DNA from: Escherichia coli
GTDB taxonomy: Bacteria > Pseudomonadota > Gammaproteobacteria > Enterobacterales > Enterobacteriaceae
DNA length: 64,000 bases
Strand: one strand, 5' to 3'
NCBI RefSeq assembly: GCF_024700885.2
Contig: NZ_CP117016.1
The notes below the pieces were generated by a model. The model worked only from the letters and a program-made list of their open reading frames with translations. It ran no database searches and had not been told where the DNA came from. Position numbers and translations under genes: made by a program. Positions within the stretch are counted from its first letter, which is position 1; each line of letters begins with the position of its first letter. Of this stretch, positions 6,574 to 36,498 are shown piece by piece.

Positions 6574-7696
6574 CCAGTTTAAGCACCTCTTTGGGAATGG
6601 AAATATGTCTGTTCAGGGCCGGGCGCGGCTGTGCGCCGTCGCGCCAGTGTTTCATTTGCAGGACGTAGGTCAGAACGTGGGCGATGGCCCGGTAAAGCTG
6701 AAACGGAATTTGCTGGTTCACCTGGGTGGTGTAGTAAACCGAGCGCGCCAGCCGCGGGAACTCGACCACTTCCACCTGATTCTCAGCAGCGACCTGACGA
6801 ATATAGAGGGCGATTTCATCGGTGCCTTTCGCCACCACAAACGGCGCGGCGGCGCGCGACTGGTCGTACTGCAACGCTACGGCGTAGTGGGTCGGGTTGG
6901 TGATCACCACGTTGGCTTTTGGCACCACTTTGCGGATTTGCCCCATCGCCAGCTGCCGTTGCAGCCGCCGCACGCGTGCCTTCACTTCCGGCTTGCCTTC
7001 CTGATTTTTGTACTCTTCTTTCAGCTCCTGCTTGGTCATCTTCAGTCCTTTGGTGAACAGGGCTTTCGCCAGCGGCACGTCGATTAACGCAAAGAAGATA
7101 AACAGGATGACAAAGTTGCGCATCACGCTGGCGTAGAGCGATAAACCGTCATTCATCGCCAGTTTGAACGGTAGTGCCTGCAGGCCGAGAAAGGCGGCAA
7201 AGTTATTGCGCAGGCTTACCCACAGCATCACCAGCACCACCACCGACTTCACCGTCATCTTTCCCGTTTCCGCCAGATGTTCGCTGGAAAACAGTCGCCC
7301 AATGCCTTTTAACGGGCTGATTTTGCTGAAATCCGGGAGGATTTTTTTCGGCAGAAACAGCCAGCCGCCGGGCACCAGCGAAGAGAGCAGCGCGGCGGCG
7401 GGCATCGGTAGCAAGGTAAGAATAAACTTGCCGAGAATTAACAGGTGATGGCGCAGAAACTGGCCGAGCACCTGCGGGTTATTAATCTCCTGCGCATACT
7501 GATGCACGCTGATAAAACTCTCGCGTACAAAATCGGCGTACCACGGAAAACTGCTGGAGATCACCACAAACGCCGCAAACAGGCTCGCCGCTAGCCCCAT
7601 ATCCTTCGAGCGCGGCAGTTGCCCCTCTTCACGCGCTTTACGCAGCTTTTGCGCCGAGGGTTTCTCTGTTTTTTCTTCGCTGCTGCTATCCGCCAT
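6557..7696 (-). CDS. lfhB: flagellar export apparatus protein FlhB homologue
   Basis: 379 aa with FlhB-like TM region and the conserved NPTH autocleavage motif (VVITNPTHYAVAL). Confidence 0.9.
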   Translation of the reverse strand: MADSSSEEKTEKPSAQKLRKAREEGQLPRSKDMGLAASLFAAFVVISSSFPWYADFVRESFISVHQYAQEINNPQVLGQFLRHHLLILGKFILTLLPMPAAALLSSLVPGGWLFLPKKILPDFSKISPLKGIGRLFSSEHLAETGKMTVKSVVVLVMLWVSLRNNFAAFLGLQALPFKLAMNDGLSLYASVMRNFVILFIFFALIDVPLAKALFTKGLKMTKQELKEEYKNQEGKPEVKARVRRLQRQLAMGQIRKVVPKANVVITNPTHYAVALQYDQSRAAAPFVVAKGTDEIALYIRQVAAENQVEVVEFPRLARSVYYTTQVNQQIPFQLYRAIAHVLTYVLQMKHWRDGAQPRPALNRHISIPKEVLKLDGENN

Positions 7697-23166: not shown

Positions 23167-23354
23167 ATTAATAATATTCTTAAAATGTGGTAATTTATTA
23201 AATCTGTAATAAAAGCGTAAACAACTGCCGCTACGCTTGCTGATCCCGCGCAACAAAACGCCATGCTTTGCTCGCAGATGGTTGGCAACCGACGACAGTC
23301 CTGCTAAAACGTTCGTTTGATATCATTTTTCCTAAAATTGAATGGCAGAGAATC

Positions 23355-24458
23355 ATGAGTGACAGCCAGACGCTGGTGGTAAAACTCGGCACCAGTGTGC
23401 TAACAGGCGGATCGCGCCGTCTGAACCGTGCCCATATCGTTGAACTTGTTCGCCAGTGCGCGCAGTTACATGCCGCCGGGCATCGGATTGTTATTGTGAC
23501 GTCGGGCGCGATCGCCGCCGGACGTGAGCACCTGGGTTACCCGGAACTGCCAGCGACTATCGCCTCGAAACAACTGCTGGCGGCGGTAGGGCAGAGTCGA
23601 CTGATTCAACTGTGGGAACAGCTGTTTTCTATTTATGGCATTCACGTCGGGCAAATGCTGCTGACCCGTGCTGATATGGAAGACCGTGAACGCTTCCTGA
23701 ACGCCCGCGACACCCTGCGTGCGTTGCTCGATAACAATATCGTTCCGGTAATCAATGAGAACGATGCTGTCGCTACTGCAGAGATTAAGGTCGGCGATAA
23801 CGACAATCTTTCTGCGCTGGCGGCGATTCTGGCGGGTGCCGATAAACTGTTGCTGCTGACCGATCAAAAAGGTTTGTATACCGCTGACCCGCGCAGCAAT
23901 CCGCAGGCAGAACTGATTAAAGATGTTTACGGCATTGATGACGCACTGCGCGCGATTGCTGGCGACAGCGTTTCAGGCCTCGGAACTGGCGGCATGAGTA
24001 CCAAATTGCAGGCCGCAGACGTGGCTTGCCGTGCGGGTATCGACACCATTATTGCCGCGGGCAGCAAGCCGGGCGTTATTGGTGATGTGATGGAAGGCAT
24101 TTCCGTCGGTACGCTGTTCCATGCCCAGGCGACTCCGCTTGAAAACCGTAAACGCTGGATTTTCGGTGCACCACCTGCGGGTGAAATCACGGTAGATGAA
24201 GGGGCAACCGCCGCCATTCTTGAACGCGGCAGCTCCCTGTTGCCGAAAGGCATTAAGAGCGTAACTGGCAATTTCTCGCGTGGTGAAGTCATCCGCATTT
24301 GCAACCTCGAAGGTCGCGATATCGCCCACGGCGTCAGTCGTTACAACAGCGATGCATTACGCCGCATTGCCGGACACCACTCGCAAGAAATTGATGCAAT
24401 ACTGGGATATGAATATGGCCCGGTTGCCGTTCACCGTGATGACATGATTACCCGTTAA
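23355..24458 (+). CDS. proB: glutamate 5-kinase
   Basis: ORF 23268..24458; start trimmed to [19 protein letters not shown] (367 aa). Confidence 0.95.
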
Positions 24459-24469
24459 GGAGCAGGCTG

Positions 24470-25723
24470 ATGCTGGAACAAATGGGCATTGCCGCGAAGC
24501 AAGCCTCGTATAAATTAGCGCAACTCTCCAGCCGCGAAAAAAATCGCGTGCTGGAAAAAATCGCCGATGAACTGGAAGCACAGAGCGAAATCATCCTCAA
24601 CGCTAACGCCCAGGATGTTGCTGACGCGCGTGCCAATGGCCTTAGCGAAGCGATGATTGACCGTCTGGCACTGACGCCCGCACGGCTGAAAGGCATTGCC
24701 GATGATGTGCGCCAGGTGTGCAACCTCGCCGATCCGGTGGGGCAGGTAATCGATGGTGGCGTGCTGGACAGTGGCCTGCGTCTGGAGCGCCGTCGCGTGC
24801 CGCTGGGTGTGATTGGCGTGATTTATGAAGCGCGGCCGAACGTGACGGTTGATGTCGCTTCGCTGTGCCTGAAAACCGGTAACGCAGTGATCCTGCGTGG
24901 TGGCAAAGAAACCTGTCGCACTAACGCTGCAACGGTGGCGGTGATTCAGGACGCCCTGAAATCCTGCGATTTACCGGCAGGCGCAGTACAAGCGATTGAT
25001 AATCCTGACCGCGCGCTGGTCAGTGAAATGCTGCGTATGGATAAATACATCGACATGCTGATCCCGCGTGGTGGCGCTGGCCTGCATAAACTGTGCCGCG
25101 AACAGTCGACGATCCCGGTGATCACAGGTGGTATAGGCGTATGCCATATTTATGTTGATGAAAGTGCAGAGATCGCTGAAGCCCTGAAAGTAATCGTCAA
25201 CGCGAAAACCCAGCGTCCGAGCACATGTAATACGGTTGAAACGTTGCTGGTGAATAAAAACATCGCCGATAGCTTCCTGCCTGTGTTAAGCAAACAGATG
25301 GCTGAAAGCGGTGTGACGTTACACGCCGATGCTACCGCACTGACGCAATTGCAGGCAGGTCCCGCGAAGGTGGTTGCTGTTAAAGCTGAAGAGTATGACG
25401 ATGAGTTTCTGTCATTAGATTTGAACGTCAAAATCGTCAGCGATCTTGACGATGCCATCGCCCATATTCGTGAACACGGCACACAACACTCCGATGCGAT
25501 CCTGACCCGCGATATGCGCAACGCCCAGCGTTTTGTTAATGAAGTAGATTCATCCGCTGTTTACGTTAACGCCTCTACGCGTTTTACCGACGGCGGCCAG
25601 TTTGGACTGGGCGCGGAAGTGGCGGTAAGCACACAAAAACTCCACGCGCGTGGCCCAATGGGGCTGGAAGCGCTGACCACTTACAAGTGGATCGGCATTG
25701 GTGATTACACCATTCGTGCGTAA
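24470..25723 (+). CDS. proA: gamma-glutamyl phosphate reductase
   Basis: 417 aa aldehyde dehydrogenase-family protein directly after proB. Confidence 0.95.
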
Positions 25724-25837
25724 ATAAAACCGGGTGATGCAAAAGTAGCCATTTGATTCACAAGGCCATTGACGCATCGCCCGGTTAGTTTTAACCTTGT
25801 CCACCGTGATTCACGTTCGTGAACATGTCCTTTCAGG

Positions 25838-25913
25838 GCCGATATAGCTCAGTTGGTAGAGCAGCGCATTCGTAATGCGAAGGTCGTAGGTTCGACTCCT
25901 ATTATCGGCACCA
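25838..25913 (+). tRNA. thrW: tRNA-Thr (anticodon CGU)
   Basis: GCCGATATAGCTCAGTTGGTAGAGCAGCGCATTCGTAATGCGAAGGTCGTAGGTTCGACTCCTATTATCGGCACCA; cloverleaf with CGT anticodon; integration site for the downstream island. Confidence 0.95.
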
Positions 25914-26077
25914 TCACCTAGTTTTCCCAAGTCAACCCACATCAACAAAATCATTTAAAAACATATATATTACGTTGTTTTCATACGTTTGAGGTCAACC
26001 CTTGTCTCTTGAAATCAACACGCGGTTGGGGGCACAATCAGGGGCATGTTCTGTTCGGTCTAGGAAATGTGCCCCCA

Positions 26078-27268
26078 ATGATGCTGAATGCCCGCAAGGT
26101 TGAAGCTGCGAAAGGAAAAGAGAAGAGCTACAAGCTGTTTGATGGAGGTGGCCTATATCTTCAGGTCGAACCTAATGGCTCGCGTTACTGGCGTATGAAA
26201 TACCGTTTTGCTGGTAAAGAGAAACGATTGTCCTTTGGTGTTTATCCAACAGTCACACTTGCTGATGCCAGACAAAAACGAGAAGACGCGAAGAAACTAC
26301 TCGCAGCAGGTGAAGATCCCGGCGAAGTCAAAAAAGCCAAAAAGCAGGCTTTAAATGCAGCGATTGAGACACTTAACCCATTCAGAGAAGTGGCGTTAGA
26401 GTGGCACAAAATGAAATCACCCAAATGGTCTGAGGGCTATGCTTCCGACATCATTGAGGCATTCGAGAAAGACATTTTCCCGCATATTGGGCACAGACCT
26501 ATAGCTGATATTCAGCCCCTTGAACTGCTTGAAGTTCTGAGATTGATAGAAGCTCGAGGCGCTATGGAGAAAGCGAAGAAAGTCCGTCAGCGATGCGGTG
26601 AAGTTTTTCGCTATGCCATCGTAACGGGTAGGGCAATCTACAATCCGGCACCGGATCTTGCCAGTGCGATGCAAGGACATGAAGCAGTCCACTATCCATT
26701 CCTCAAAGCCAACGAACTACCGGAGTTCTTTAATGCCCTTAATTCTTATTCAGGAAGTCCAATTGTATTGTTGGGGGCGCATTTACTTATCCTGACAGGT
26801 CTACGAACTGGAGAACTACGAGCAGGTGAGTGGCGAGAGGTGGATTTTGATAATGCGGTGTGGGAGATCCCAAAAGAACGTATGAAAATGCGTAGGAGCC
26901 ATATTGTCCCGTTGTCAAAACAAGCATTATCCCATCTCAAAAGTTTGAAAGAACTAACTGGGAACTACCCGCTGATGTTCCCTGGACGCAACGATCCTAG
27001 CAAATTTATGAGTGAAGCAAGCATTAATCAGGTGTTTAAACGTATTGGATATGCAGGGCGTGTTACGGGGCATGGTTTCAGGCATACGATGAGTACAATC
27101 CTACATGAGAAAGGATTTAACAGCGCTTGGATTGAAACCCAGCTTGCTCATTCGGACAAAAACTCTATTCGTGGAATTTATAACCATGCCCAATATCTCG
27201 AAGGGAGAAGAGAAATGATGCAATGGTATGCTAATTATTTATCTGAGCTAATTGGTACTCATAAATGA
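26078..27268 (+). CDS. P4-type tyrosine integrase (tRNA-targeting)
   Basis: ORF 26009..27268; likely start at MMLNARK; C-terminal catalytic region with HGFRHT and conserved Tyr (RGIYNHAQYLEGRREMMQWY); directly beside thrW. Confidence 0.85.
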   Translation: MMLNARKVEAAKGKEKSYKLFDGGGLYLQVEPNGSRYWRMKYRFAGKEKRLSFGVYPTVTLADARQKREDAKKLLAAGEDPGEVKKAKKQALNAAIETLNPFREVALEWHKMKSPKWSEGYASDIIEAFEKDIFPHIGHRPIADIQPLELLEVLRLIEARGAMEKAKKVRQRCGEVFRYAIVTGRAIYNPAPDLASAMQGHEAVHYPFLKANELPEFFNALNSYSGSPIVLLGAHLLILTGLRTGELRAGEWREVDFDNAVWEIPKERMKMRRSHIVPLSKQALSHLKSLKELTGNYPLMFPGRNDPSKFMSEASINQVFKRIGYAGRVTGHGFRHTMSTILHEKGFNSAWIETQLAHSDKNSIRGIYNHAQYLEGRREMMQWYANYLSELIGTHK

Positions 27269-28089
27269 ATATTTTAAAAATTAATAATACTGATTCTCTG
27301 CTCAGAGATTACTACCAGTTGGATGAAGCTTCAGAAAAAATTGGTTGTAGTGAAAAGGATATACTCTGGTTTGCCAGAGAACGAGATGTAGAGCTATGCA
27401 TGGAATTCCATGATGATGAGTATGATGTTTCATGTGGTTTGAAGATTGATGGTCAAATGGATGAGTTCTTATCTAATCTGAAATATTTACCACGAGATAG
27501 AAATGGCAATATTATGTTGTCAGACTTAAGTTCTATAAGAATCCCTGATGAAGATAATTTAATTGATAAAAATGGTTTTATTCGATGTTTCATATCCGGT
27601 TTATGGGCTGTTGATTATGAATATAAAGATCTGTTAGTTAAGCATGAGGGGCAACCGGATTCCTGGCCTATTCATTTTCTACTGGCGGGTACGCCTAATA
27701 TAAATTGTAAGGTAATTCTTTATGTAAATTATGATGAAAAAGAAAATTATTATCTTTTTGAGGTTTTGTGGATTACAAAGGTACAGATTCAAAAATTCAT
27801 TGATATAGTCTTATGCGAACAAAAGCGGATAAAAAACGCCAATAAATATAAATCACAATCTGAGGCGCAAAAACAAAAACATGCTGTTCCTCGAGCTGAA
27901 ATACTCATGGCTATTATTTCGCTCTATCATCGTGATATGAGGCTAAGAAGAGAGAGTCCAGCAGCGATAGCTGATTATCTTTTTCAACATGCCAGTGAGT
28001 TCTGGCCTAAGACCGGAGAACCGCCTTTGAGCTATGATACTGTTGTTAGTTTGCTACGTAGTTGCATGAAAAACACTAAGTTTAACTAA
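27265..28089 (+). CDS. hypothetical protein (AT-rich island cargo, translationally coupled to integrase)
   Basis: 274-aa ORF whose ATG overlaps the integrase stop (ATGA); strongly AT-rich compared with flanking DNA; no recognisable motif. Confidence 0.55.
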   Translation: MNILKINNTDSLLRDYYQLDEASEKIGCSEKDILWFARERDVELCMEFHDDEYDVSCGLKIDGQMDEFLSNLKYLPRDRNGNIMLSDLSSIRIPDEDNLIDKNGFIRCFISGLWAVDYEYKDLLVKHEGQPDSWPIHFLLAGTPNINCKVILYVNYDEKENYYLFEVLWITKVQIQKFIDIVLCEQKRIKNANKYKSQSEAQKQKHAVPRAEILMAIISLYHRDMRLRRESPAAIADYLFQHASEFWPKTGEPPLSYDTVVSLLRSCMKNTKFN

Positions 28090-28214
28090 ATATTAACAAT
28101 TATTGTGGCTAATGATTTTGGATTTTTTTCATTAGTCACATTTTTCTCATTTATAACCTATGTTTTAATTTTCCGTGTTGAAGCCAATAGACTTAGATAA
28201 ACGGAGAATGATGA

Positions 28215-28421
28215 ATGTTATCTAAACATGATAATACTACTTTGCAACGACCTTCAATGGATTCTCTGATCGATATGAAGTTTATTACTTCCGATTGTTT
28301 ATTAAGTGATAAATGGATTTATCGATTGATTTCTCTGAATCGCTTTCCAAAACCTATAAAAATAGGTCGGATGTCACGATGGCGCGCTGCTGATTATTAT
28401 AAGTGGCGAGATGGGTTTTAA
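28215..28421 (+). CDS. alpA: AlpA/Vis-family phage transcriptional regulator (excisionase-like)
   Basis: 68 aa with the AlpA-like core ...RLISLNRFPKPIKIGRMSRWRAADYYKWRD. Confidence 0.7.
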   Translation: MLSKHDNTTLQRPSMDSLIDMKFITSDCLLSDKWIYRLISLNRFPKPIKIGRMSRWRAADYYKWRDGF

Positions 28422-28537
28422 GAAAACTCAGGTCAACATTTTGAGGGAATGAGAAATAAGGCAAGAGCAATTAATAAAGGGAATAGATTATCACCTACTC
28501 CCTAAGCCTTAATTGATAGTTAGTAATATTTAACTGA

Positions 28538-28711
28538 TTAGCCTTTAGGGTCAATCCCGCGTGATTGGAGTTCTTTGCGTAAAATTCTTTTAATCCAAGT
28601 TGCCAACGCGCTATCTCCATCTTTGCGCATTTCGTTTTCGAGTTGCAACCTAAAATCGTCGGTAAGACGCATTTGGAATGGTGGAGAACGTTTCTCTTGT
28701 GGTGTTGACAT
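28538..28711 (-). CDS. small Arc/MetJ-type (ribbon-helix-helix) DNA-binding protein, putative island repressor
   Basis: 57-aa minus-strand ORF (MSTPQEKRSPPFQMRLTDDFRLQLENEMRKDGDSALATWIKRILRKELQSRGIDPKG); below the ORF-track size cut-off; start codon overlaps the operator region. Confidence 0.45.
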   Translation of the reverse strand: MSTPQEKRSPPFQMRLTDDFRLQLENEMRKDGDSALATWIKRILRKELQSRGIDPKG

Positions 28712-28751
28712 GGTAATTACCCTAGAATATGATGACTACATGGTAATTACC
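28705..28751 (+). promoter_or_regulatory. sigma-70-like promoter (TTGACA-17-TATGAT) with two copies of the palindromic operator GGTAATTACC
   Basis: TTGACA at 28705-28710, 17-bp spacer, TATGAT at 28728-28733; catGGTAATTACC occurs at 28709-28721 and 28739-28751, 30 bp apart. Confidence 0.45.
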
Positions 28752-28842
28752 ATTGTAAGTATAGTTCGCTTGTAAAAGCAATGCCCGATTGTGCGGGAAC
28801 ACAAATCGGGCATTTAACCAACCGTTATAAGAGGTAACGAAG

Positions 28843-29019
28843 ATGGCTAAACAGAAGTGTACTTGGTTATTTGCGGCGATCAACCGCAGTCAACGCAATG
28901 CCCGTCCTGTGATGTTAAGGATCACCGCAGATAACGAGCGGTCAGCGCGGCGCAGACTTGCCCCGGACTATGTACTGAGCTTTGCCGGGCGCATTCCCTG
29001 CGGAGGTGAACATGCGTAA
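28843..29019 (+). CDS. small hypothetical protein (58 aa), first ORF of the rightward early transcript
   Basis: ATG with GAGG 8 nt upstream; MAKQKCTWLFAAINRSQRNARPVMLRITADNERSARRRLAPDYVLSFAGRIPCGGEHA; not in the ORF track (<60 aa). Confidence 0.3.
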   Translation: MAKQKCTWLFAAINRSQRNARPVMLRITADNERSARRRLAPDYVLSFAGRIPCGGEHA

Positions 29020-29371
29020 TTATCCGCACCCCGGCGAACGCTGGCAGCATGAACGTGGCTGGACGGTCACGATTATCCGATTAATAGAAGCATCGCCCTC
29101 TGTGGCACTGGTTAATCCTGAATTCAGCTGTGAAGTGCTGATACGTCATGACAGCGACAACCAGCTTTCTTCCTGCCCTCTGGCATGGTTTGAACAGCGG
29201 TATACGCGCCTGTTTGATGTACCGCTCTTTAAGCCTGCACCAGCTCCTGCAGGCGGTAGTGGTTCCGGCCCGCTGACACTGCATCCGTCTGTGCTATTTA
29301 TCCGCTGGCGGGAGCGTAGCATATGGCGTTCTGCTGAGCCTGACGACGGTCACTATTCAAAGTTTCTCTGA
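29012..29371 (+). CDS. hypothetical protein (island early region)
   Basis: ORF 28982..29371; ATG at 29012 with GGAGG 8 nt upstream; 119 aa, no recognisable motif. Confidence 0.4.
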   Translation: MRNYPHPGERWQHERGWTVTIIRLIEASPSVALVNPEFSCEVLIRHDSDNQLSSCPLAWFEQRYTRLFDVPLFKPAPAPAGGSGSGPLTLHPSVLFIRWRERSIWRSAEPDDGHYSKFL

Positions 29372-29402
29372 CAAAATACCGCTGAAAACGGAGTAATCCA
29401 CG

Positions 29403-29687
29403 ATGAATATTTCAAACGGGCACAACGGTGCTCAGGGCCACACTTTGCCTGAAAAACACAATACCGGTGCTTTTGCCTATGGGTTGTCAGAGGACAGTTT
29501 CGGAAAGCTGACCCGCGCAAGAAATGCCTGCGACATGCTCCAGCTTCTCTTTTCTGAATACCCGTCTCAGGCCGGAGCACTGGACGCTGGCTGTGCGCAT
29601 GGTGTCGCCGCGCTGATGGAGTACCTGCTGGCAGATTTGACGGATATTGCACACAGCTGCGCACTGATTGAAGGAGGTGCCAGATGA
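29403..29687 (+). CDS. hypothetical protein (island early region)
   Basis: 94-aa ORF, 4-nt overlap with the next ORF (operon-like). Confidence 0.4.
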   Translation: MNISNGHNGAQGHTLPEKHNTGAFAYGLSEDSFGKLTRARNACDMLQLLFSEYPSQAGALDAGCAHGVAALMEYLLADLTDIAHSCALIEGGAR

Positions 29688-30067
29688 ACCAGCCGCAGGT
29701 TTCCATTTTCCCGGCAGAAATGACCACCGCGCTTTACCGGCGGGCTATTGCTTCAGCATGGCGGCAGAAAATGCTGAACGAAACTGGCAGTGATCAGTAT
29801 GGTCCGCACAGCCTGACGGTGGAGCGTATTGAAATGGCCATTGCGCTGCATATCGAGTGCGTACTGATTAACGAGTACGGCGAAGTGCAGGGCGCCGCTG
29901 CCGCGCTGGCACTGCTGACTGACATGCTGGAGCCGTCACTGCTGACCGCGCCGCCGGTACTGACCGCGCGCGGCTGTGAAGTGATGGCGGAGATGTACCG
30001 CACGCTTCCGGCGGCCTTTGATGACTTCTGCAGTACCGGTGTGACGTTGTATGAGGGGGAAGTATGA
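29684..30067 (+). CDS. hypothetical protein (island early region, precedes primase)
   Basis: 127-aa ORF, 4-nt overlaps with both neighbours. Confidence 0.4.
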   Translation: MNQPQVSIFPAEMTTALYRRAIASAWRQKMLNETGSDQYGPHSLTVERIEMAIALHIECVLINEYGEVQGAAAALALLTDMLEPSLLTAPPVLTARGCEVMAEMYRTLPAAFDDFCSTGVTLYEGEV

Positions 30068-32736
30068 CAATACAGACGGTTACGCAGATTTCAGCCGCCG
30101 CACGGGGGAAATGGCCCGTTATTCTGCAGATGCTGCGTATTGATGTACCTGAAAACGGCAGGCACGGTCCCTGCCCGAAATGTGGGGGCAAGGATCGTTT
30201 TCGCCTTGATGACCTTGACGGGCGCGGGACGTGGATCTGCAGCCAGTGTGGCAATGGTGACGGTCTGGATCTGGTTAAGCTCGTAACCGGTTACAGCGTC
30301 AGAAAGGCTGCGCAGGAGGTGGCGCAGGTGCTTAATGTGCCGAATATGCAGGAACTGCCTGTTAAGCCTGCCAGACAAAAAGCCCCTAAACGCGACATGG
30401 GTCTTACCGTGGCGGCGCTGATGAAAGAGAGCCACACGGGAGAAAGCGCCTATCTGACAGGAAAAGGGTTCGCCGGATACCCGGCCTCTCTGACCGGAAG
30501 CGTGCAGCATATCAGCGGTAAGGATTTCCCTGCCGGTTCCCTGCTGTTACCACTCACGACCAACACCGGAGCCGTGACCGGTGCACAGCTTATCGCCCCG
30601 ACGGGTGAAAAAAGCATACTGCCCGGCAGCACGATGAAAGGCGCGTTTGTGTCGCTCAGCCCGTTACCGTCTGAACCACCGGTACAGGTGGTGATTACCG
30701 AAGGTTACGCTACGGCGCTGACGGTAAGTCAGCTCACTGCCGGATGCGTAGTGGCTGCCATATCTGCGGGCAACCTGCCCAATGTGGCGCAGTCGCTGCG
30801 GGCACGCTGGCCTGAGGTAAAAATTATCATCGCCGGTGATAACGATTTTCAGGACGGAGATGAGAATCCCGGCAGAGCCTTTGCTGAACGGGCGGCAAAA
30901 GCTGTTGGCGGCTGGATGACGCTGCCACCAGGAGAGATTAAGGCTGACTGGAATGACTTTCATCGGGAGCACGGTATTACCCGTGCCCGTGAAGCCTTTC
31001 GCAACGGTCTGGTACTGTGCGGGGAAGGCCGCACGCAACTGCCGCACGGGTTCCGTCTTACCCAGGAATATCTCTGGTATGAAAAGCAGGTACAGCGCAA
31101 CGGTGAGACGGAGATCCAGAACGTCAAAATATGCAGCCCGCTGCGCGTGACGGCAATCACCTGCGATGCCGATGGCGGTAACTTCGGACGACTGCTGGAA
31201 TGGGAAGATACGTGGGGTGAGTGTCGCCGCTGGGCGATGCCGATGGAAATGCTGAGCGGCAGTGGTGAGGAACTGCGCCGGGTACTGCTGGTTAACGGGC
31301 TGTCTTATATCAGCACCACCGGTGAGGCACGCGCACGCCTGATGGAATATATCTCACTGTGTAAACCGGAACGCCGCGTGACCTGCGTCAGTCGTACTGG
31401 CTGGCATGGTCAGGTTTACGTCCTGCAGGATGAGGTCAGCGGTGAAGGTGCAGAGGGTGTCATTCTCCAGACCACTTCCGTGCAGGGGCGTGATTTCCGC
31501 GTGTCGGGCACAACAGAGGAATGGCGGGAGCATGTATCCCGCTACTGTACCGGCAACTCCCGCGTGGCATTTGCTGTCAGCCTGGCCTTTGCTGCACCAC
31601 TGTTACGGCTGGTTGGTATGGACGGCGGCGGCTACCACCTCAAAGGGGAATCGACAGACGGTAAGACCACCACCATGAAAGCGGCAACCTCCGTCTGCGG
31701 CGGGCCTGACTACTGGCAGACATGGCGGGCCACCGGCAACGCGCTGGAGGGATGCGCCAGCCGCCGCAACGATGCCGCCATGATGCTTGATGAGATCCGG
31801 GAAGTTGACGGACGCGAGGCAGGCAATATCGCCTACATGCTGGCAAACGGTCAGGGCAAGGGCCGTGCCGGTACGGACGGTGAGCTGCGTACCCGTAAGC
31901 AGTGGCGCCTGTTGTTCTTTTCAACTGGCGAGTTGTCTCTGACCGAACATGCGGCAAAGGCCGGTGAGCGTACTTTTGCCGGGATGGAAGTCAGGATGAT
32001 CCAGATCCCCAGCGATTCCGGGAAGTTTGGCGTTTTTGAGGAGCTGCACGGCTTCGACAGCGGCAAGGCTCTGGCAGAGCATCTTGAATGGGCCACGTCC
32101 TGCTACTACGGTTCGCCGTTCCGGGAGTGGCTGAAAGCACTGACCGCTGATCTTAACGGACTAACGGCACAGGCAAAATCGCTGATGAAGGAATATGCTG
32201 CCGCCCTGACTCCGAAAGATGCAGGCAATCAGGTGGGCCGGGCTGTGAACCGCTTTGCTCTGGTGGCGATGGCAGGTGAACTGGCAACCCGTCTGGGTAT
32301 CACCGGCTGGCCTGAGGGTGAAGCACTGCGGGCAACCCGCGTCTGCCTGAACGCATGGCTGAAAGATCGCGGGCACACCGCCAATCAGGAAGATATCGCC
32401 GCACTGGAGCAGGTTCGCAGTTTCTTTACCGCGAATCAGTACAGCCGCTTTGCAGACTGGTATGACGAGCGCAACCGCCCCGGCAATATGGTGGGCTGGC
32501 GCAGGGTGGAGAAAGGCAGTACCGCGCAGGGCACGGAAGCTGTCACTACGTTCTATGTCATGCCGTCCGGCTGGAAAGAAATCTGCAGGGGATTTGACCC
32601 GCGCAAGGTGGCGCGTCTGTGCGCAGATCGTGGATACCTGCTGCCCTCCACAGATGGCAAACTCCAGACAACCATTCGCCCGCCAGAGATGAATCCCCGC
32701 AGGCTCTATGTCTTCAACAGCGAGGTGCCTGGTTAA
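30064..32736 (+). CDS. P4 alpha-type primase/helicase (zinc-binding primase domain, Toprim, P-loop NTPase)
   Basis: 890 aa; N-terminal Cys4 zinc motif (CPKCGGKDRF...CSQCGNGDG), Toprim-like acidic region, Walker A GESTDGKTT. Confidence 0.88.
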   Translation: MTIQTVTQISAAARGKWPVILQMLRIDVPENGRHGPCPKCGGKDRFRLDDLDGRGTWICSQCGNGDGLDLVKLVTGYSVRKAAQEVAQVLNVPNMQELPVKPARQKAPKRDMGLTVAALMKESHTGESAYLTGKGFAGYPASLTGSVQHISGKDFPAGSLLLPLTTNTGAVTGAQLIAPTGEKSILPGSTMKGAFVSLSPLPSEPPVQVVITEGYATALTVSQLTAGCVVAAISAGNLPNVAQSLRARWPEVKIIIAGDNDFQDGDENPGRAFAERAAKAVGGWMTLPPGEIKADWNDFHREHGITRAREAFRNGLVLCGEGRTQLPHGFRLTQEYLWYEKQVQRNGETEIQNVKICSPLRVTAITCDADGGNFGRLLEWEDTWGECRRWAMPMEMLSGSGEELRRVLLVNGLSYISTTGEARARLMEYISLCKPERRVTCVSRTGWHGQVYVLQDEVSGEGAEGVILQTTSVQGRDFRVSGTTEEWREHVSRYCTGNSRVAFAVSLAFAAPLLRLVGMDGGGYHLKGESTDGKTTTMKAATSVCGGPDYWQTWRATGNALEGCASRRNDAAMMLDEIREVDGREAGNIAYMLANGQGKGRAGTDGELRTRKQWRLLFFSTGELSLTEHAAKAGERTFAGMEVRMIQIPSDSGKFGVFEELHGFDSGKALAEHLEWATSCYYGSPFREWLKALTADLNGLTAQAKSLMKEYAAALTPKDAGNQVGRAVNRFALVAMAGELATRLGITGWPEGEALRATRVCLNAWLKDRGHTANQEDIAALEQVRSFFTANQYSRFADWYDERNRPGNMVGWRRVEKGSTAQGTEAVTTFYVMPSGWKEICRGFDPRKVARLCADRGYLLPSTDGKLQTTIRPPEMNPRRLYVFNSEVPG

Positions 32737-32769
32737 GGCTTTGCGTGAGTCTTATTTATTAAGGGTAAC

Positions 32770-32960
32770 AGGTGAAACAGGTGGAACAACCGTATTTTAC
32801 AGGGCTGAACCTGTTCCACCTTCTGAAATAGTGAGGTGGAACAGATGTAACGCCAGCCAATCCGCTGTTCCACCTTGTTACCCGCGATGTTCCACCGGTG
32901 CAGTGTATATAAATGCCTTATAAAACAAAGCCGTAACACATGTTTCACCTGTTCCACCGC
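32770..32960. repeat. iteron cluster (repeated GGTGGAACA/TGTTCCACC motif), candidate replication origin/crr
   Basis: At least six copies of the TGTTCCACC core in both orientations within about 190 bp directly downstream of the primase gene. Confidence 0.55.
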
Positions 32961-33046
32961 ATCAGGGACATAAAGCAGACTGAAACAGAGGGCATTTTTA
33001 TCTGGCTGGCTTTCATAGCCACGTCTGAATAACCGCAAGCGCCCGT

Positions 33047-33102
33047 TGTGCCAGCCACCACACACTGAACACCGATAGTGTGCTTGTGTCAGCCACGACA
33101 CA
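33047..33102 (+). promoter_or_regulatory. two TGT-N12-ACA dyads (Ogr/Delta-type activator sites), candidate late promoter
   Basis: TGTgccagccaccacACA (33047-33064) and TGTgtcagccacgacACA (33085-33102) upstream of the sid-like gene. Confidence 0.5.
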
Positions 33103-33136
33103 ATTGACGTAACGAACCAACCCGACAGGAGAAGTC

Positions 33137-33880
33137 ATGAACAATACCGCAGTAAATAACAACCTTTCCACTTTTCCGGCTGTAACGCAGCGGGCACTGG
33201 AAACCATGAACACAGCCAGAAACGCATGGCTTGAAGCACGTCGTCAGCAGAAAGCGGCAGCGGATAATATTGCGACAATCCGCCAGCGTCGCGCTGAAAT
33301 GGAAGCCACGACGAACACACTGAATGAGGAGTGGCGCACGCTGTTTCGTGAAAGTCAGGGCGTGATCTCAAAGGAAATGAAAAAACTGCGCACGGAAATT
33401 GCGCTGGGACGAGAAACGCTTGAGGATTTTGATGAGCTGCTGGCGGCTCAGGAAAGCGAAAATGCACTTTTGCCGCAGAAAGCTGCAGAATTAGCCGGAA
33501 AGTATATCCACGCGCATAACATTCTTGTGGATATTCGCGCAAAACAAATCTGGGAGGATTTTATGCAGTCGCATGGAAAAGTGCTTATTCAGACGCTGAG
33601 CCTGCTTAAATCCACAATGGGCCGGGAAGCCAGTGCCGTTGTGGGTGTGGTGAATTCAGTTAATGACCCGGACACAGTGCTGAAAGACTTTATTCATAAA
33701 TATATCACCAGACCGGCTCTGGCTAACGATGCGATGCCTGAGCAGGACCCGGTGTTTAAACTGGCGGGAGTTGCCCCGGATTATGCGGCGCGTCTGGATT
33801 TCAGTAATCAACTCTCTCCGGCAGCTATGCATAAAATTAAGGTTCGTCAGGAACTTGCTGAGAAGGAGAAAGCAGTATGA
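33137..33880 (+). CDS. Sid-like capsid size-determination (external scaffold) protein
   Basis: 247-aa helix-rich protein; first gene of the late operon downstream of the TGT-N12-ACA dyads and immediately upstream of the Psu-like gene; assignment by context and size. Confidence 0.45.
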   Translation: MNNTAVNNNLSTFPAVTQRALETMNTARNAWLEARRQQKAAADNIATIRQRRAEMEATTNTLNEEWRTLFRESQGVISKEMKKLRTEIALGRETLEDFDELLAAQESENALLPQKAAELAGKYIHAHNILVDIRAKQIWEDFMQSHGKVLIQTLSLLKSTMGREASAVVGVVNSVNDPDTVLKDFIHKYITRPALANDAMPEQDPVFKLAGVAPDYAARLDFSNQLSPAAMHKIKVRQELAEKEKAV

Positions 33881-34428
33881 CGGCCCGAGGCACGCCTGAC
33901 CAGGCACTTACCAGTTTTCGGAATGCCCGTATTCTGTGGGCCGGACATAATGAGAGCCGAAAAGCCGTTGAACAACAGATAACATCTCTCCTCGCTGCCA
34001 CAGAAAAACCAGCAGATTATGCCCGACAGCTCGAATTACTGCGGGAACGTCTGGATGTGCTGAAATGGCAAATTAACTGTGCTGCGCGCGAATGCATTTA
34101 CTCGCAGCATTTACTGATGGAGGCCTGCACAGAAGCCGCTCTCAGCAATTTTATGCAGGCGAATGGGGCAGCCCTGACATCTGCACTGGCTCCGTTCCTG
34201 AAGGGGCGCGGAGGGGTTGACGTTGCGTCCCGTATATTACGCAGTGCTCTGGTTCGCCAGCTGGCAATAACACCGCCTGAATTTGCCGGGGATTATCGTG
34301 AGATCCTGGATGAATCCGGTTTGATGCTTGACCCCGGGATGATTCGTGATTGCCAGGGTTCTTACACCCCGGCACAACATCTGCGTTTTCAGCAACGCCT
34401 GAATGACATTAACGATATACAGGAGTGA
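33877..34428 (+). CDS. Psu-like polarity-suppression / capsid-decoration protein
   Basis: 183 aa; motifs recalled from P4 Psu (LKWQINCAAR, HG.ALA.ALAP, TPAQHLRFQQR); 4-nt overlap with the sid-like gene. Confidence 0.65.
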   Translation: MTARGTPDQALTSFRNARILWAGHNESRKAVEQQITSLLAATEKPADYARQLELLRERLDVLKWQINCAARECIYSQHLLMEACTEAALSNFMQANGAALTSALAPFLKGRGGVDVASRILRSALVRQLAITPPEFAGDYREILDESGLMLDPGMIRDCQGSYTPAQHLRFQQRLNDINDIQE

Positions 34429-34433
34429 TATTA

Positions 34434-34706
34434 ATGGCACTTAAATGTCCGGAATGCGGTACAGTTGCACACGCCAGAACAGCAGCCTATGAAGCTCCGT
34501 CAGTTAAACGCTCGTGGTATCAGTGCCAGAATCTGGAATGTTCCTGCACATTTACGGCACTGGAGAGTGTGGATAAGATAATCATGAAACCCCGGCGCAA
34601 TGAACAGGAACCAGACAAATCACAAACCCCGGTAAAACAACAGCAAACGCTCAATCGCTATGGCTCCGCGTCAAAACTGTCAAGCCGTCAGCAGATTCCT
34701 GTCTGA
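34434..34706 (+). CDS. Ogr/Delta-family zinc-finger late transcriptional activator
   Basis: ORF 34425..34706; start trimmed to MALKCPECG with AGGAG upstream; Cys4 pattern CPECG...CQNLEC typical of Ogr/Delta. Confidence 0.75.
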   Translation: MALKCPECGTVAHARTAAYEAPSVKRSWYQCQNLECSCTFTALESVDKIIMKPRRNEQEPDKSQTPVKQQQTLNRYGSASKLSSRQQIPV

Positions 34707-34727
34707 TTAGAAAAAAAATGCCCACGT

Positions 34728-34753
34728 AATCCCGGTCGAGTACTGGGATTTTT
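34728..34753 (+). terminator. rho-independent terminator-like hairpin after the late operon
   Basis: aatccc-ggtcgagtact-gggatt stem-loop followed by a T run. Confidence 0.4.
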
Positions 34754-35289
34754 AACACCTTACCCCTGGCTGGCCTGAGAGCGCATGAGTGCATGTCTAT
34801 GGCGCATGAAAACGCATGAGTCTCATGCACCATTTTTGACGCGAAAGCCCTTGTGTGGTGGCTTCTGAGACGATTAATGAGGTGCATGAAAACCAGTCTG
34901 TTAAGTGAAGCGGGAAGGCGTGCGGGGCTGCGCACGTAGCAGGGTTAAATGGTCAATTCTGGCGCAGCTCACGACATTAAGTCAGCCTCAATAGATGTAC
35001 GTGTTGGTAGGGGTAATTCGCTACTTTTTTGTATCCTAAATTGTATGGTTTGATGCTGATCGTTTCTTCACCGCACCTGCAGAGATATCAATTCAATGTG
35101 GACAAAAATGAGTCTGGCTCTTTCCGTATCACTAGAATTGCCAGTATTGTTAGGGATGATGCCCATATCATACGGAGGGAGCCAGTGGGGGCGATTGCGC
35201 GTGGAAAGTGCTTTGGATTTATTCATCGGTTTTATGATTCTACATAAGGAGCAAAGGTACTTGTATCGTATGAAAAAAAATAGTATAGA

Positions 35290-35520
35290 TATAATGCTCC
35301 TTACGCGTTATGGCATAGTTATATGCTAGTCGGGCGATTAGCCAGACTCGAACTTATTGAACGGTATTAGGGTTGCGCTTGGTGTGCCTCTGGATTGCAC
35401 TCCATGCTGTCGCGCAATCCAGAGGCACACCAAGCGCTTCCTTTAGGTAAGTGAGTAAAAACAGCACCTTCTTCGATTTATGATGAAGGTGCTGCAATCG
35501 TAACGTTTTTTGTATACACG
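35290..35520 (+). ncRNA. candidate retron msr-msd non-coding RNA
   Basis: Non-coding stretch directly upstream of the effector-RT pair with a perfect 24-bp stem (35375-35398 / 35414-35437, 15-nt loop) and a second 10-bp stem (35462-35471 / 35485-35494); exact ends and a1/a2 repeats not resolved. Confidence 0.55.
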
Positions 35521-35529
35521 GATAGTATA

Positions 35530-36498
35530 GTGGCTGAGACATACGAAGATAAAGTTGCTAATCATGTTTCAGAGTGGGAAATGGAAAATTTCCGTGTATG
35601 TTATGATGATCAGGTTATTTTCTTATGTGGTGCGGAAGTACTTCCTCAAGGAAGTGTTCAGACTTCAATGAGAGGGCATTTTTATCACTATTGCCTGAAT
35701 AAAAATAAAGATATAGCTGATAAAATAATTCTTGCCGAAAACTTCAAAAAATATCTTCAAAATAATCATTATCCAGACTTAATAACTTTTGAGCATGATG
35801 TTGCAAGTATATCTAGTTTAGTTGTTATTTTCTTGGAAAGCAGTGGTTCAATTGCTGAGTTAGGTGTTTTCTGTAATATTAGTGATGTCAATAAAAAATT
35901 ATTGATATTTGTTCCATCAGATGAAGTTGAAGGTGACAAGAAAGAGTCTTTCATTTACTTAGGGCCTTTATTGTTTTTAAAAGAAAAGGTCAATGAAAAA
36001 GCATTTAAGATTTATCCAAAACCCACTAATGGTTCTGATTACTCCGAGCATTTAGAGATTATGGCTGATGACTTGGCTGAACTATTACCTAGAAGTGGTA
36101 AGTTTGAAAGCTTCGATCCTGACAATTTAGGGCATATAGCTTTTCTTATATGCAGAATTGTGCATTTAGTAATGCCTATTAAGCTAAAGGAAATATTAAA
36201 TTGTTTAAAAATAATAGGTATCAATAAATATACTCTGACTGAGGTTGAAAGAATTTTGTTTTTATTGGAAACATTGGGTTTTATAAATATTTATCCGTAT
36301 GGCGATTTAAAATACTATTATTCAATGCAAGCCAGGCAAAATCTTAAATTAGGGAAAAATAAAACCGGATTCACAATCGATGAGGCTGGTATTTTTACTG
36401 ATATTAGTGTTTTTATCAATGACAATAAATTATGTAGTGATAAAAAAAGACGGCTGGTTTTGAAAGGCATTAAGGAGAAGCATAATGGACATAATTAA
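35530..36498 (+). CDS. retron effector candidate: nucleoside 2-deoxyribosyltransferase-like (NDT-like) protein with C-terminal putative DNA-binding region
   Basis: 322 aa (GTG start in the ORF track); Rossmann-like N-terminus with ESSGSIAELG motif resembling the NDT-family catalytic Glu region; overlaps the RT gene by 14 nt; AT-rich. Confidence 0.6.
   Translation: MAETYEDKVANHVSEWEMENFRVCYDDQVIFLCGAEVLPQGSVQTSMRGHFYHYCLNKNKDIADKIILAENFKKYLQNNHYPDLITFEHDVASISSLVVIFLESSGSIAELGVFCNISDVNKKLLIFVPSDEVEGDKKESFIYLGPLLFLKEKVNEKAFKIYPKPTNGSDYSEHLEIMADDLAELLPRSGKFESFDPDNLGHIAFLICRIVHLVMPIKLKEILNCLKIIGINKYTLTEVERILFLLETLGFINIYPYGDLKYYYSMQARQNLKLGKNKTGFTIDEAGIFTDISVFINDNKLCSDKKRRLVLKGIKEKHNGHN

What the first reader, a model, noticed from the sequence alone, without database searches (positions are those of the whole stretch)
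28538..29019. Compact genetic switch: Arc-like repressor, two palindromic GGTAATTACC operators and a near-consensus rightward promoter
A 57-aa ribbon-helix-helix-like ORF on the minus strand starts inside a plus-strand TTGACA-17 bp-TATGAT promoter. The 13-bp element catGGTAATTACC occurs twice exactly 30 bp apart, one copy in the spacer and one at the predicted transcription start. This looks like the immunity/early switch controlling the operon leading to the primase, and differs from the RNA-based immunity of classical P4.
Basis: seen in the sequence. Interest (0 to 1): 0.4.

Follow-up and report, generated by a model that had tools for sequence, protein, structure and literature searches.

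The report
Satellite early-operon switch: repressor plus antisense RNA
A P4-like phage satellite in E. coli guards its early (replication) operon with a tiny Arc-like repressor bound to twin palindromes and, very probably, a previously undescribed small antisense RNA; the same cassette sits unannotated in well-studied Gram-negative PICI satellites, for which one of the papers read here says no master repressor is established.

Summary
A 57-aa ORF (28538-28711, minus) starts inside TTGACA of an 11/12 promoter (TTGACA-17-TATGAT). ACATGGTAATTACC occurs twice, 30 bp apart: once in the spacer and once at the predicted start.

Comparative data support a repressor-operator pair. The ORF is under purifying selection. 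Its model matches almost only ribbon-helix-helix structures. Across about 45 related loci the palindromes keep their positions, and their outer bases co-vary with the protein's N-terminal strand.

P4's CI (C4) RNA and its isrK-like target are absent here, while P4 itself scores strongly. Between operator 2 and the Icd-like gene lies a conserved ~77-nt minus-strand RNA (28848 to ~28772), antisense to that gene's Shine-Dalgarno and start codon. It shows strong covariation, a G-U strand bias, a U-rich tail and a fixed TAnnnT -10. Its expression is not shown.

The cassette is portable. It occurs in 442 of 5426 complete E. coli genomes, including an unannotated copy in the O157:H7 PICI. Some loci carry it upstream of a C4 RNA. 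In CFT073 a different small repressor and repeats replace it.

The closest analogue is the P22 immI region. I rate it a new variant of a known kind.

The parts
28538..28711 (-). 57-aa ribbon-helix-helix (Arc/Mnt-like) protein gene, proposed repressor
28478..28503 (-). terminator-like hairpin plus T-run downstream of the repressor gene
28705..28733 (+). rightward early promoter P_R (TTGACA-17-TATGAT), predicted +1 at about 28740
   Evidence: 11 of 12 matches. TTGACA overlapping the repressor's ATG is conserved in nearly all related loci. The Pasteurella copy is also 11 of 12.
28710..28721 (.). operator O1 (ATGGTAATTACC) in the P_R spacer; on the other strand it lies across the repressor's own ribosome-binding region
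28740..28753 (.). operator O2 (ATGGTAATTACCAT, perfect 14-bp palindrome) at +1 to +14 of P_R and next to the -10 of the leftward promoter
   Evidence: identical in the Pasteurella element Pmp8
28752..28781 (-). putative leftward promoter P_L for the repressor gene: TTGCTT (28781-28776), 18 bp, TACAAT (28757-28752); predicted start about 28744; Shine-Dalgarno AGGG at 28724-28721
   Evidence: Read from the sequence; 8 of 12, so below the scanner's cut-off in the window. The homologous site in the O157:H7 island was called independently as TTGATT-16-TACAAT, 9 of 12. Inferred, not shown.
28772..28848 (-). predicted cis-antisense small RNA (~77 nt). 5' AGCCAU is antisense to the ATG; a 5-bp stem-loop (28839-28823) carries the anti-Shine-Dalgarno loop CCUCUUA; then the conserved linker UUGGUUAAA; then a 14-bp terminator hairpin (28814-28780) followed by GCUUUU
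   Evidence: Covariation: 89.3% of cells paired, 15 of 19 pairs changed on both sides, score 0.44 vs 0.19 for shuffles (0/500) and at most 0.19 for slid controls. 68 G-U vs 8 A-C cells place the RNA on the minus strand. RNAalifold predicts a structure only for the minus orientation. Covariance model R1 scores 78.7 bits here and hits once beside almost every repressor locus. MFE -28.5 kcal/mol, z -5.05.
28856..28883 (-). putative antisense-RNA promoter inside the first codons of the Icd-like gene: TTGATC (28883-28878), 16 bp, TACACT (28861-28856)
   Evidence: A TAnnnT hexamer lies 7 nt upstream of AGCCAT in 32 of 39 non-identical loci; in several of the remaining loci, which have a shorter N-terminus, I read an equivalent hexamer nearer the start codon. 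This holds despite different N-terminal coding sequences. Inferred, not shown.
28843..29019 (+). Icd-like small ORF (58 aa), first gene of the rightward operon and target of the antisense RNA
   Evidence: NCBIfam NF033153, 84 bits against a cut-off of 25. 54% identical to the C-terminal part of the P4 'cI ORF'. An Icd-like gene follows the cassette in most related loci.
28215..28421 (+). AlpA/Vis-like gene upstream (context)
   Evidence: Pfam Phage_AlpA, 21.6 bits against a cut-off of 21; PHROG excisionase/regulator
30064..32736 (+). alpha-type primase (TOPRIM plus DUF927), distal gene of the controlled operon (context)

Best explanation
This is a two-layer control cassette for the early (replication) operon of a P4-like satellite integrated at tRNA-Thr.

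Layer 1 is a protein repressor. The 57-aa ribbon-helix-helix protein binds as dimers to the palindromes O1 and O2. O1 lies between the -35 and -10 of the strong rightward promoter P_R. O2 lies at +1 to +14. Binding occludes RNA polymerase and shuts off Icd-like -> ... -> primase. O2 also abuts the -10 and start of the weak leftward promoter, and O1 overlies the repressor's own leader. The protein should therefore autoregulate. The two promoters face each other with starts about 5 bp apart and should be mutually exclusive.

Layer 2 is an RNA. A constitutive ~77-nt RNA is transcribed leftward from a promoter in the first codons of the Icd-like gene and ends at an intrinsic terminator just before the repressor's promoter. 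It is fully complementary to the P_R leader. Its loop (CCUC) faces the Shine-Dalgarno loop (GAGG) of the mRNA. It would block translation of the Icd-like gene from leaky transcripts. By analogy with P1 c4/icd, this could also reduce expression of downstream genes.

Shown here: the sequence anatomy, conservation, operator-protein covariation, RNA covariation and its strand. Inferred: DNA binding, repression, RNA expression and its effect, and how the helper phage lifts repression.
For: Anatomy.

Protein:
- 85 homologues; purifying selection.
- RHH assignment from hhalign against a Mnt-like protein, E 2.7e-5, register PPFQMRL ~ PQFNLRL.
- Pfam Arc in 12 of 36 members; PHROG 'Arc-like repressor', E 0.003.

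Operators:
- Fixed at +7 and +37/38 from the start of the -35 in most loci.
- RSP(P/Q)(F/Y)QMR proteins pair with GGTAATTACC (31 loci).
- K(T/S)(D/Q)QYQ(M/I/L)R proteins pair with TGTAATTACA (8 loci).
- A third protein type pairs with different repeats.
- The Pasteurella copy has a compensated palindromic O1, GGTATATACC.
- CFT073 keeps the architecture with a different small protein and two GTGGGCCACACCT repeats in the same two positions.

Antisense RNA.

Leftward promoter: called independently in the O157 copy.

Absence of P4-type RNA: with the positive control.
Against: - There is no experimental evidence of binding, repression or antisense transcription.
- The window protein itself reaches no Pfam or NCBIfam threshold.
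- AF2 shows only the two helices (pLDDT 73.6). A single-chain dimer model failed (pLDDT 53, no strands), so the beta-ribbon dimer is unconfirmed.
- Foldseek hits are non-significant (E 3.7).
- The antisense promoter has a weak -35 and its -10 overlaps a conserved protein motif, so coding constraint could contribute.
- The window's terminator has only four U's.
- The leftward promoter is 8 of 12 in the window.
Confidence: 0.62

Rival explanations
1. The repressor-operator-promoter switch is real, but there is no separate antisense RNA. The conserved leftward RNA element is the 5' leader of the repressor's own mRNA. The repressor would then be transcribed from the promoter inside the Icd-like gene, and the hairpin with its U-run would act as an attenuator rather than a full terminator.
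For: The RNA element is always on the repressor's strand and immediately upstream of it. The window's U-tract is short. The leftward promoter next to O2 is only 8 of 12 in the window (one search did not list it).
Against: 22 of 32 loci have at least 6 T's right after a 14-bp GC-rich stem. A separate TTGATT-16-TACAAT promoter lies between the hairpin and the repressor gene in the O157 copy. In CFT073 the RNA element is retained next to a different repressor gene, so it tracks the Icd-like gene rather than the repressor.
Confidence: 0.14
2. The hairpins work in the rightward mRNA leader, for example as a stability element, an RNase III site or a translational control structure. No leftward RNA would matter.
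For: The plus-strand RNA also folds well (-25 kcal/mol, z -3.97), and Watson-Crick covariation is strand-symmetric.
Against: Non-Watson-Crick cells are 68 G-U against 8 A-C when read on the minus strand. On the plus strand the 68 would be C-A mismatches. One pair is G-U in 31 of 32 sequences. RNAalifold finds no consensus structure for the plus orientation. The U-rich tail exists only for the minus strand, 22 of 32 against 0 of 32. A -10-like hexamer sits at a fixed distance on the minus strand.
Confidence: 0.08
3. The small protein is not the maintenance (immunity) repressor. It could be an accessory autoregulator or an antitoxin-like partner of the potentially toxic Icd-like protein, with AlpA or another factor holding real control of the satellite cycle.
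For: AlpA is the demonstrated activator of Gram-negative PICI induction (PMC6092414; bioRxiv 10.1101/2022.09.08.507074). Some loci with the cassette still carry isrK and C4 immunity RNAs downstream. Many RHH proteins are antitoxins.
Against: The protein is only 57 aa, with no C-terminal toxin-binding extension. It is transcribed divergently from the Icd-like gene, not co-transcribed with it as type II antitoxins usually are (my own knowledge, not checked here). Its sites cover the core of the only strong promoter upstream of the replication genes.
Confidence: 0.12
4. The palindromes are chance matches or sites for another factor, and the small ORF is not a gene.
For: The ORF is annotated only as 'hypothetical' and is not annotated at all in O157:H7.
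Against: Purifying selection, 85 homologues, and operator-protein covariation at fixed positions.
Confidence: 0.02

Closest known systems
Phage P22 immunity I region (mnt, Pant/Pmnt, arc, sar RNA, ant)
   Same: Both have small ribbon-helix-helix repressors acting on a symmetric operator within a strong promoter. Both have opposed, overlapping promoters, with the repressor gene reading away from the controlled operon. Both have a short cis-antisense RNA complementary to the ribosome-binding site of the regulated gene. The components (mnt and arc repressors, sar antisense RNA) are as summarised in PMC2629481; the promoter geometry is from my own knowledge. The best profile match of the protein family is a P22-type Mnt-like protein.
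   Different: Here the regulated first gene is Icd-like, not an antirepressor. There is one repressor, Arc-sized and without Mnt's C-terminal tetramerisation helix. There are two separate palindromes 30 bp apart. No Rfam family other than a sub-threshold SymR match scores on the antisense region. The host elements are satellites (P4-like and PICIs), where the cassette heads the replication operon.
Satellite phage P4 immunity (PLE, seqA/isrK, CI RNA = C4 family, seqC)
   Same: The promoter has the same genomic position, between vis/alpA and the Icd-like 'cI ORF' homologue and upstream of DUF5375 and the primase. An RNA pairing with the leader of the early transcript is the proposed logic in both.
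   Different: P4's RNA is processed from the sense transcript and acts on repeated target sites. Here C4, isrK and c4-a1b1 are absent (compare P4). The RNA is a cis-encoded antisense transcript, and a protein repressor with operators is added. P4 has no hit to the new RNA model. Some relatives carry both systems in series.
Phage P1/P7 immunity I (c4 RNA, icd, ant)
   Same: An Icd-family leader gene has its translation initiation region targeted by a small RNA. In P1 this also controls transcription of the downstream gene (my own knowledge: Citron & Schuster 1990, cited in PMC3632133; Biere et al. 1992).
   Different: C4 acts in trans or from the same transcript and belongs to Rfam RF01695, which is absent here. 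No RHH repressor-operator pair sits at the P1 promoter.
SaPI/PICI master repressor Stl (Rpr) of Gram-positive PICIs
   Same: A repressor gene is transcribed divergently from the excision-replication operon of a phage satellite (PMC6092414).
   Different: From my own knowledge, Stl proteins are larger helix-turn-helix proteins. There is no homology, and no antisense RNA is mentioned for Stl in the papers read here. Whether a helper-phage protein inactivates the RHH protein is unknown.
SymR/SymE-type type I toxin-antitoxin
   Same: A ~77-nt cis-antisense RNA with a 5' stem-loop and terminator covers the Shine-Dalgarno sequence and AUG of a small, potentially toxic protein. This is the only Rfam resemblance (31.6 bits).
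   Different: The score is far below the gathering score (61). The target protein family is unrelated.

Membership tests
Ribbon-helix-helix repressors of the Arc/Mnt type (Pfam PF03869) | Sequence match to the family profile at its curated threshold | tested here: inconclusive
   The window protein has no Pfam or NCBIfam hit. 12 of 36 homologues hit PF03869 below threshold, best E 1.5e-4. PHROG 228 'Arc-like repressor' gives E 0.003. hhalign against a Mnt-like protein gives Prob 74%, E 2.7e-5, in the expected strand/helix-A register.
Ribbon-helix-helix repressors of the Arc/Mnt type (Pfam PF03869) | Strand-helix-helix fold | tested here: met
Ribbon-helix-helix repressors of the Arc/Mnt type (Pfam PF03869) | Obligate dimer with an antiparallel two-stranded ribbon | tested here: inconclusive
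   The single-chain dimer AF2 model has pLDDT 53 and no strands.
Ribbon-helix-helix repressors of the Arc/Mnt type (Pfam PF03869) | Binds symmetric or tandem operators that overlap the regulated promoter | not testable with these tools
   Binding cannot be measured here. In-silico support is strong: fixed operator positions and operator-protein covariation.
P4-type RNA immunity (C4/CI RNA RF01695 with isrK/seqA RF01394) | CI (C4-family) RNA encoded downstream of the early promoter | tested here: not met
   No C4 hit at E<=1 in 25500-36000. P4 control scores 74.9 bits. Relatives L012, L019 and L066 do have it.
P4-type RNA immunity (C4/CI RNA RF01695 with isrK/seqA RF01394) | isrK/seqA-type target in the leader | tested here: not met
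   No hit. P4 control scores 60.8 bits.
P22 immI-type control (RHH repressor plus cis-antisense RNA) | Small cis-antisense RNA with its own promoter and terminator covering the target's ribosome-binding site | tested here: met
   Structure, covariation, strand bias, U-tail and a fixed -10. Expression was not tested.
P22 immI-type control (RHH repressor plus cis-antisense RNA) | Homology of the RNA to sar, and an antirepressor (ant) as the regulated gene | tested here: not met
   No Rfam family other than a sub-threshold SymR match covers the antisense-RNA region. The regulated gene is Icd-like.
Icd-like host cell division inhibitor (NCBIfam NF033153), for the regulated gene | Profile match above the curated cut-off | tested here: met
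   84 bits against a cut-off of 25. Whether it inhibits cell division was not tested.
SymR antitoxin RNA (RF01809) | Score at or above Rfam's gathering score | tested here: not met
   31.6 bits against 61.
P4-like satellite (host element) | Core genes int, alpA/vis, alpha primase, sid, psu and delta next to a tRNA | tested here: met
   tRNA-Thr 25838-25910. The RefSeq annotation of an identical copy lists integrase, an HTH regulator, a TOPRIM/DUF927 primase, psu and ogr/Delta. The sid-like ORF at 33137-33880 is assigned by position only.

The most novel reading that the evidence does not exclude
The cassette may be the missing master switch of Gram-negative phage satellites. It comprises a small exchangeable repressor, twin operators in and just after a strong promoter, a cis-antisense RNA and an Icd-like leader gene. 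It is shared horizontally between P4-like elements and PICIs, including the model islands EcCIEDL933 (same RHH, unannotated) and EcCICFT073 (different repressor, same RNA). Helper phages would induce these satellites by neutralising the small repressor, as they do Stl in Gram-positive PICIs. The antisense RNA would set the threshold and protect the host from the Icd-like protein.
Probability: 0.3. Interest if true: 0.75.

Novelty: new variant of a known kind. Interest (0 to 1): 0.58.

Why it matters
Satellites such as P4 and the PICIs must stay silent until a helper phage arrives. P4 does this with the CI RNA, and Gram-positive PICIs do it with the Stl repressor. [quoted passage not shown]

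The cassette found here is a concrete, testable candidate for that role. It is present in 442 of 5426 complete E. coli genomes and in Pasteurellaceae and other Enterobacterales. It sits in the well-studied O157:H7 island, where the repressor gene is not annotated.

It also adds a candidate RNA family (covariance model R1) that Rfam 15 does not match at threshold. Finally, it shows how repressor-operator specificity is swapped while the RNA and Icd-like part stays constant. That is useful for predicting cross-immunity between satellites.

Tried and rejected
- **Family searches on the window protein.** Pfam and NCBIfam gave nothing.
- **PDB sequence-profile search.** It returned only designed helical-repeat proteins, which are compositional matches to the two helices and uninformative.
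- **Single-chain dimer AF2 model.** Built to see the beta-ribbon, it had low confidence and was discarded.
- **P4-type CI RNA in the window.** Rejected by Rfam, with P4 as positive control.
- **SymR membership.** Rejected as sub-threshold.
- **Mutual exclusivity of the RHH cassette and C4 RNA.** Rejected, because three loci have both.
- **Hairpin as a plus-strand leader structure.** Rejected on G-U strand bias and the U-tail.
- **Simple terminator scanner.** It does not call the SL2 hairpin because of the hairpin's bulge and mismatches, so terminator status rests on my reading plus covariation.
- **Literature.** Searches for the cassette, for its sequences and for a PICI repressor found no description. 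The library does not cover all journals.
- **Repeat GCAATGCCCG (28778 and 28895).** Considered as a P4 seqA/seqC analogue but left unexplained, because it is only seen in the closely related Icd-like alleles.

Full report
**Context**

The window is an E. coli chromosome. proB and proA (23268-25723) are followed by tRNA-Thr (25838-25910), and then by a P4-like satellite. Its genes, in order, are:
- integrase, 26009-27268;
- an unknown 274-aa ORF;
- an AlpA/Vis-like gene, 28215-28421;
- the small minus-strand ORF;
- an Icd-like ORF, 28843-29019;
- two unknown ORFs;
- DUF5375;
- a TOPRIM/DUF927 primase, 30064-32736;
- a sid-like ORF, psu and an ogr/delta gene;
- a retron.

These come and the RefSeq annotation of an identical copy. 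The finding therefore sits where P4 has its early promoter PLE and its immunity region (P4 annotation). The window's Icd-like ORF is 54% identical to the C-terminal part of P4's historical 'cI ORF'.

**Observation**

- The 57-aa ORF runs 28538-28711 on the minus strand.
- TTGACA is at 28705-28710, followed by 17 bp and TATGAT at 28728-28733. This gives 11 of 12 matches and is the best promoter-like site in 28100-29500.
- The repeat is 14 nt (ACATGGTAATTACC), at 28708-28721 and 28738-28751. The second copy is a perfect 14-bp palindrome.
- GGTAATTACC occurs exactly only at these two places in 64 kb.

**Is the ORF a gene, and what kind?**

A search found 85 homologues (54-98% identity) across Enterobacterales, Pasteurellaceae and Gilliamella. 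Most are unnamed and two are called 'Arc family DNA-binding protein'. Codon comparisons show more synonymous than nonsynonymous differences in nearly all comparisons, for example 26 against 8 for L007, so the ORF is a protein under purifying selection.

The window protein reaches no Pfam or NCBIfam threshold. The other evidence points the same way:
- 12 of 36 family members hit Pfam Arc, best E 1.5e-4.
- PHROG 228 'Arc-like repressor' hits at E 0.003.
- hhalign of the family profile against the Mnt-like 'Arc family' protein of a neighbouring P22-like prophage gives Prob 74%, E 2.7e-5. It aligns RSPPFQMRLTDDFRLQLENEMRKDGD with DDPQFNLRLPYELKEKLKQRAKSNGR, which is the DNA-reading strand plus helix A.
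- The AF2 monomer has two helices, pLDDT 73.6.
- A single-chain dimer model failed, so the dimeric ribbon is unconfirmed.

**Are the palindromes its operators?**

A scan of viral contigs gave 67 loci. In essentially all intact ones the repressor's ATG overlaps TTGACA. One palindrome follows immediately, in the spacer, and a second lies just after the -10.

The palindrome sequence changes with the protein:
- RSP(P/Q)(F/Y)QMR proteins go with GGTAATTACC (31 loci).
- K(T/S)(D/Q)QYQ(M/I/L)R proteins go with TGTAATTACA (8 loci).
- A further protein type goes with unrelated repeats.

A 15-kb Pasteurella element (Pmp8) has the same module at 70% DNA identity. Its O2 is identical and its O1 is changed to another palindrome, GGTATATACC. 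This is the signature of a cognate repressor-operator pair. Binding itself is inferred.

**P4-type RNA immunity**

Rfam finds C4 (74.9 bits), isrK and c4-a1b1 in P4. It finds none of them in 25500-36000 of the window at E<=1. However, three related loci (L012, L019, L066) carry isrK and C4 downstream of the same repressor cassette. The cassette is therefore an add-on module, not a strict replacement.

Downstream of O2, all loci share a long hairpin, a conserved CTAACCA, and a 5-bp hairpin that presents the Shine-Dalgarno sequence.

The covariation is strong. In 32 sequences, 89.3% of cells are paired and 15 of 19 pairs change on both sides. The covariation score is 0.44, against 0.19 for shuffles (0 of 500 reach it) and at most 0.19 for slid controls.

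Four observations put the RNA on the minus strand:
- There are 68 G-U cells against 8 A-C cells.
- One pair is G-U in 31 of 32 sequences.
- RNAalifold predicts a structure for the minus orientation only.
- A T-rich run follows the long hairpin only on the minus strand, in 22 of 32 loci against 0 of 32.

On that strand, a TAnnnT hexamer lies 7 nt upstream of AGCCAT (the complement of ATGGCT) in 32 of 39 non-identical loci. In several of the rest, which have a shorter N-terminus, I read an equivalent hexamer nearer the start codon. This holds although the N-terminal coding sequences differ.

The simplest reading is a ~77-nt cis-antisense RNA. In the window it runs from 28848 to about 28772. It consists of:
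- a 5' end antisense to the start codon;
- a stem-loop with the anti-Shine-Dalgarno loop CCUCUUA;
- the linker UUGGUUAAA;
- a terminator hairpin followed by GCUUUU.

Its MFE is -28.5 kcal/mol, z -5.05. A covariance model (R1) scores 78.7 bits in the window. It hits once beside almost every repressor locus, always on the repressor's strand, and does not hit P4. The only Rfam resemblance is a sub-threshold match to SymR, another cis-antisense RNA of similar architecture. Expression has not been shown.

**The repressor's own promoter**

Between the terminator and O2, the minus strand reads TTGCTT-18-TACAAT (28781-28752). This is 8 of 12 in the window. The homologous TTGATT-16-TACAAT in the O157:H7 copy was called independently by the scanner. 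Its predicted start (about 28744) lies inside O2, about 5 bp from the predicted P_R start (28740). The two promoters therefore face each other and share the operators. A terminator-like hairpin follows the repressor gene (28503-28478).

**Portability**

The module matches 442 of 5426 complete E. coli genomes at 80% coverage or more.

In O157:H7 it sits in the island beside potAB-pepT-roxA, which I take to be the capsid-forming island called EcCIEDL933 in the literature. There the repressor ORF is not annotated, and an Icd-like pseudogene is called on the opposite strand.

In the CFT073 island beside phoQ, which I take to be EcCICFT073, the antisense-RNA element (60 bits) and the Icd-like gene are retained. 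The divergent gene there encodes a different small protein (YlcI/YnfO family), and the promoter carries two GTGGGCCACACCT repeats in the same two positions.

In most related loci the first downstream gene is Icd-like.

**Comparison with known systems**

- *P22 immI.* This is the closest analogue in logic. It has RHH repressors (mnt, arc), a strong promoter with a symmetric operator, and the sar antisense RNA over the ant ribosome-binding site (components summarised in PMC2629481). The RNA, the regulated gene and the host elements differ.
- *P1 immI (c4-icd-ant) and P4 (seqA-CI-seqC).* These share the Icd-family leader gene and RNA control. They use a processed sense-strand RNA of the C4 family (PMC3632133), which is absent here.
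- *Gram-negative PICIs.* The papers I read describe AlpA as activator, state that a global repressor is unclear (PMC6092414), and mention C4/isrK RNAs in the variable zone (PMC10111431). None describes this repressor or this antisense RNA. My search does not cover the whole literature.

**Verdict**

The feature is a compact, two-layer, horizontally shared control cassette. I rate it a new variant of a known kind, with moderate-to-good interest. It supplies a testable candidate for satellite silencing in Gram-negative bacteria and a new candidate RNA family.

Noticed in passing
window 35296-36498 and beyond: A retron sits just after the satellite's delta gene. It shows Rfam msr (53.4 bits, above the gathering score of 52) at 35296-35365, then a sub-threshold STnc400 match at 35368-35486 that is probably the msd region. 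An identical RefSeq copy annotates a 'retron St85 family effector' (35530-36498) and a reverse transcriptase. This fits the known defence hotspot of P4-like satellites (PMC9122126, seen in the result list but not read).
   Followed up: partly
L071 (E. coli CFT073 NC_004431) 473-1052: The CFT073 PICI keeps the antisense-RNA element (R1, 60 bits, 769-851 minus) and the Icd-like gene. It pairs them with a different 59-aa divergent protein (YlcI/YnfO family) and two GTGGGCCACACCT repeats, one in the promoter spacer and one after the -10. The architecture is the same and the specificity is swapped.
   Followed up: partly
L072 (E. coli O157:H7 strain 4276) about 7004-7174, minus strand: The RHH repressor ORF is present but not annotated in the O157:H7 PICI. 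PGAP instead calls an 'Icd-like pseudogene' on the opposite strand (6558-7151).
   Followed up: partly
L012 931-1116; L019 3520-3723; L066 297-502 and 2062-2148: Some elements with the RHH cassette also carry isrK-like and C4 (P4 CI-type) RNAs downstream. In L012 they lie within a long ORF that has one Icd-like segment before them and one after. This suggests the C4 cassette has been inserted or lost within Icd-like genes.
   Followed up: partly
window 28772-28787 and 28889-28904 (also 28897-28911): The direct repeat GCAATGCCCG occurs in the hairpin arm and again inside the Icd-like ORF. The second copy is 80% complementary to the other hairpin arm (D2 and I3). It could be a second pairing site, like P4 seqA/seqC, or it could be chance. 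It is seen only in closely related alleles.
   Followed up: no
L072 7340-7360, plus strand: A terminator-like hairpin with a T-run lies about 40 nt inside the first ORF of the O157:H7 island's early operon. It may be a premature termination site like the one P4 uses. No equivalent was seen in the window.
   Followed up: no
window 27265-28089: A 274-aa ORF between the integrase and alpA genes has no Pfam, NCBIfam or PHROG match. It may be accessory cargo.
   Followed up: no
L040 6365-6430; L048 6454-6520: The Rfam int-alpA RNA motif (RF02996) is present in the Pasteurellaceae elements that carry the cassette.
   Followed up: no
L001 1008-1259: In strain elppa4 a P22-like prophage with its own Mnt-like 'Arc family' gene lies directly upstream of the satellite. 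I used it as the comparison sequence for hhalign.
   Followed up: yes
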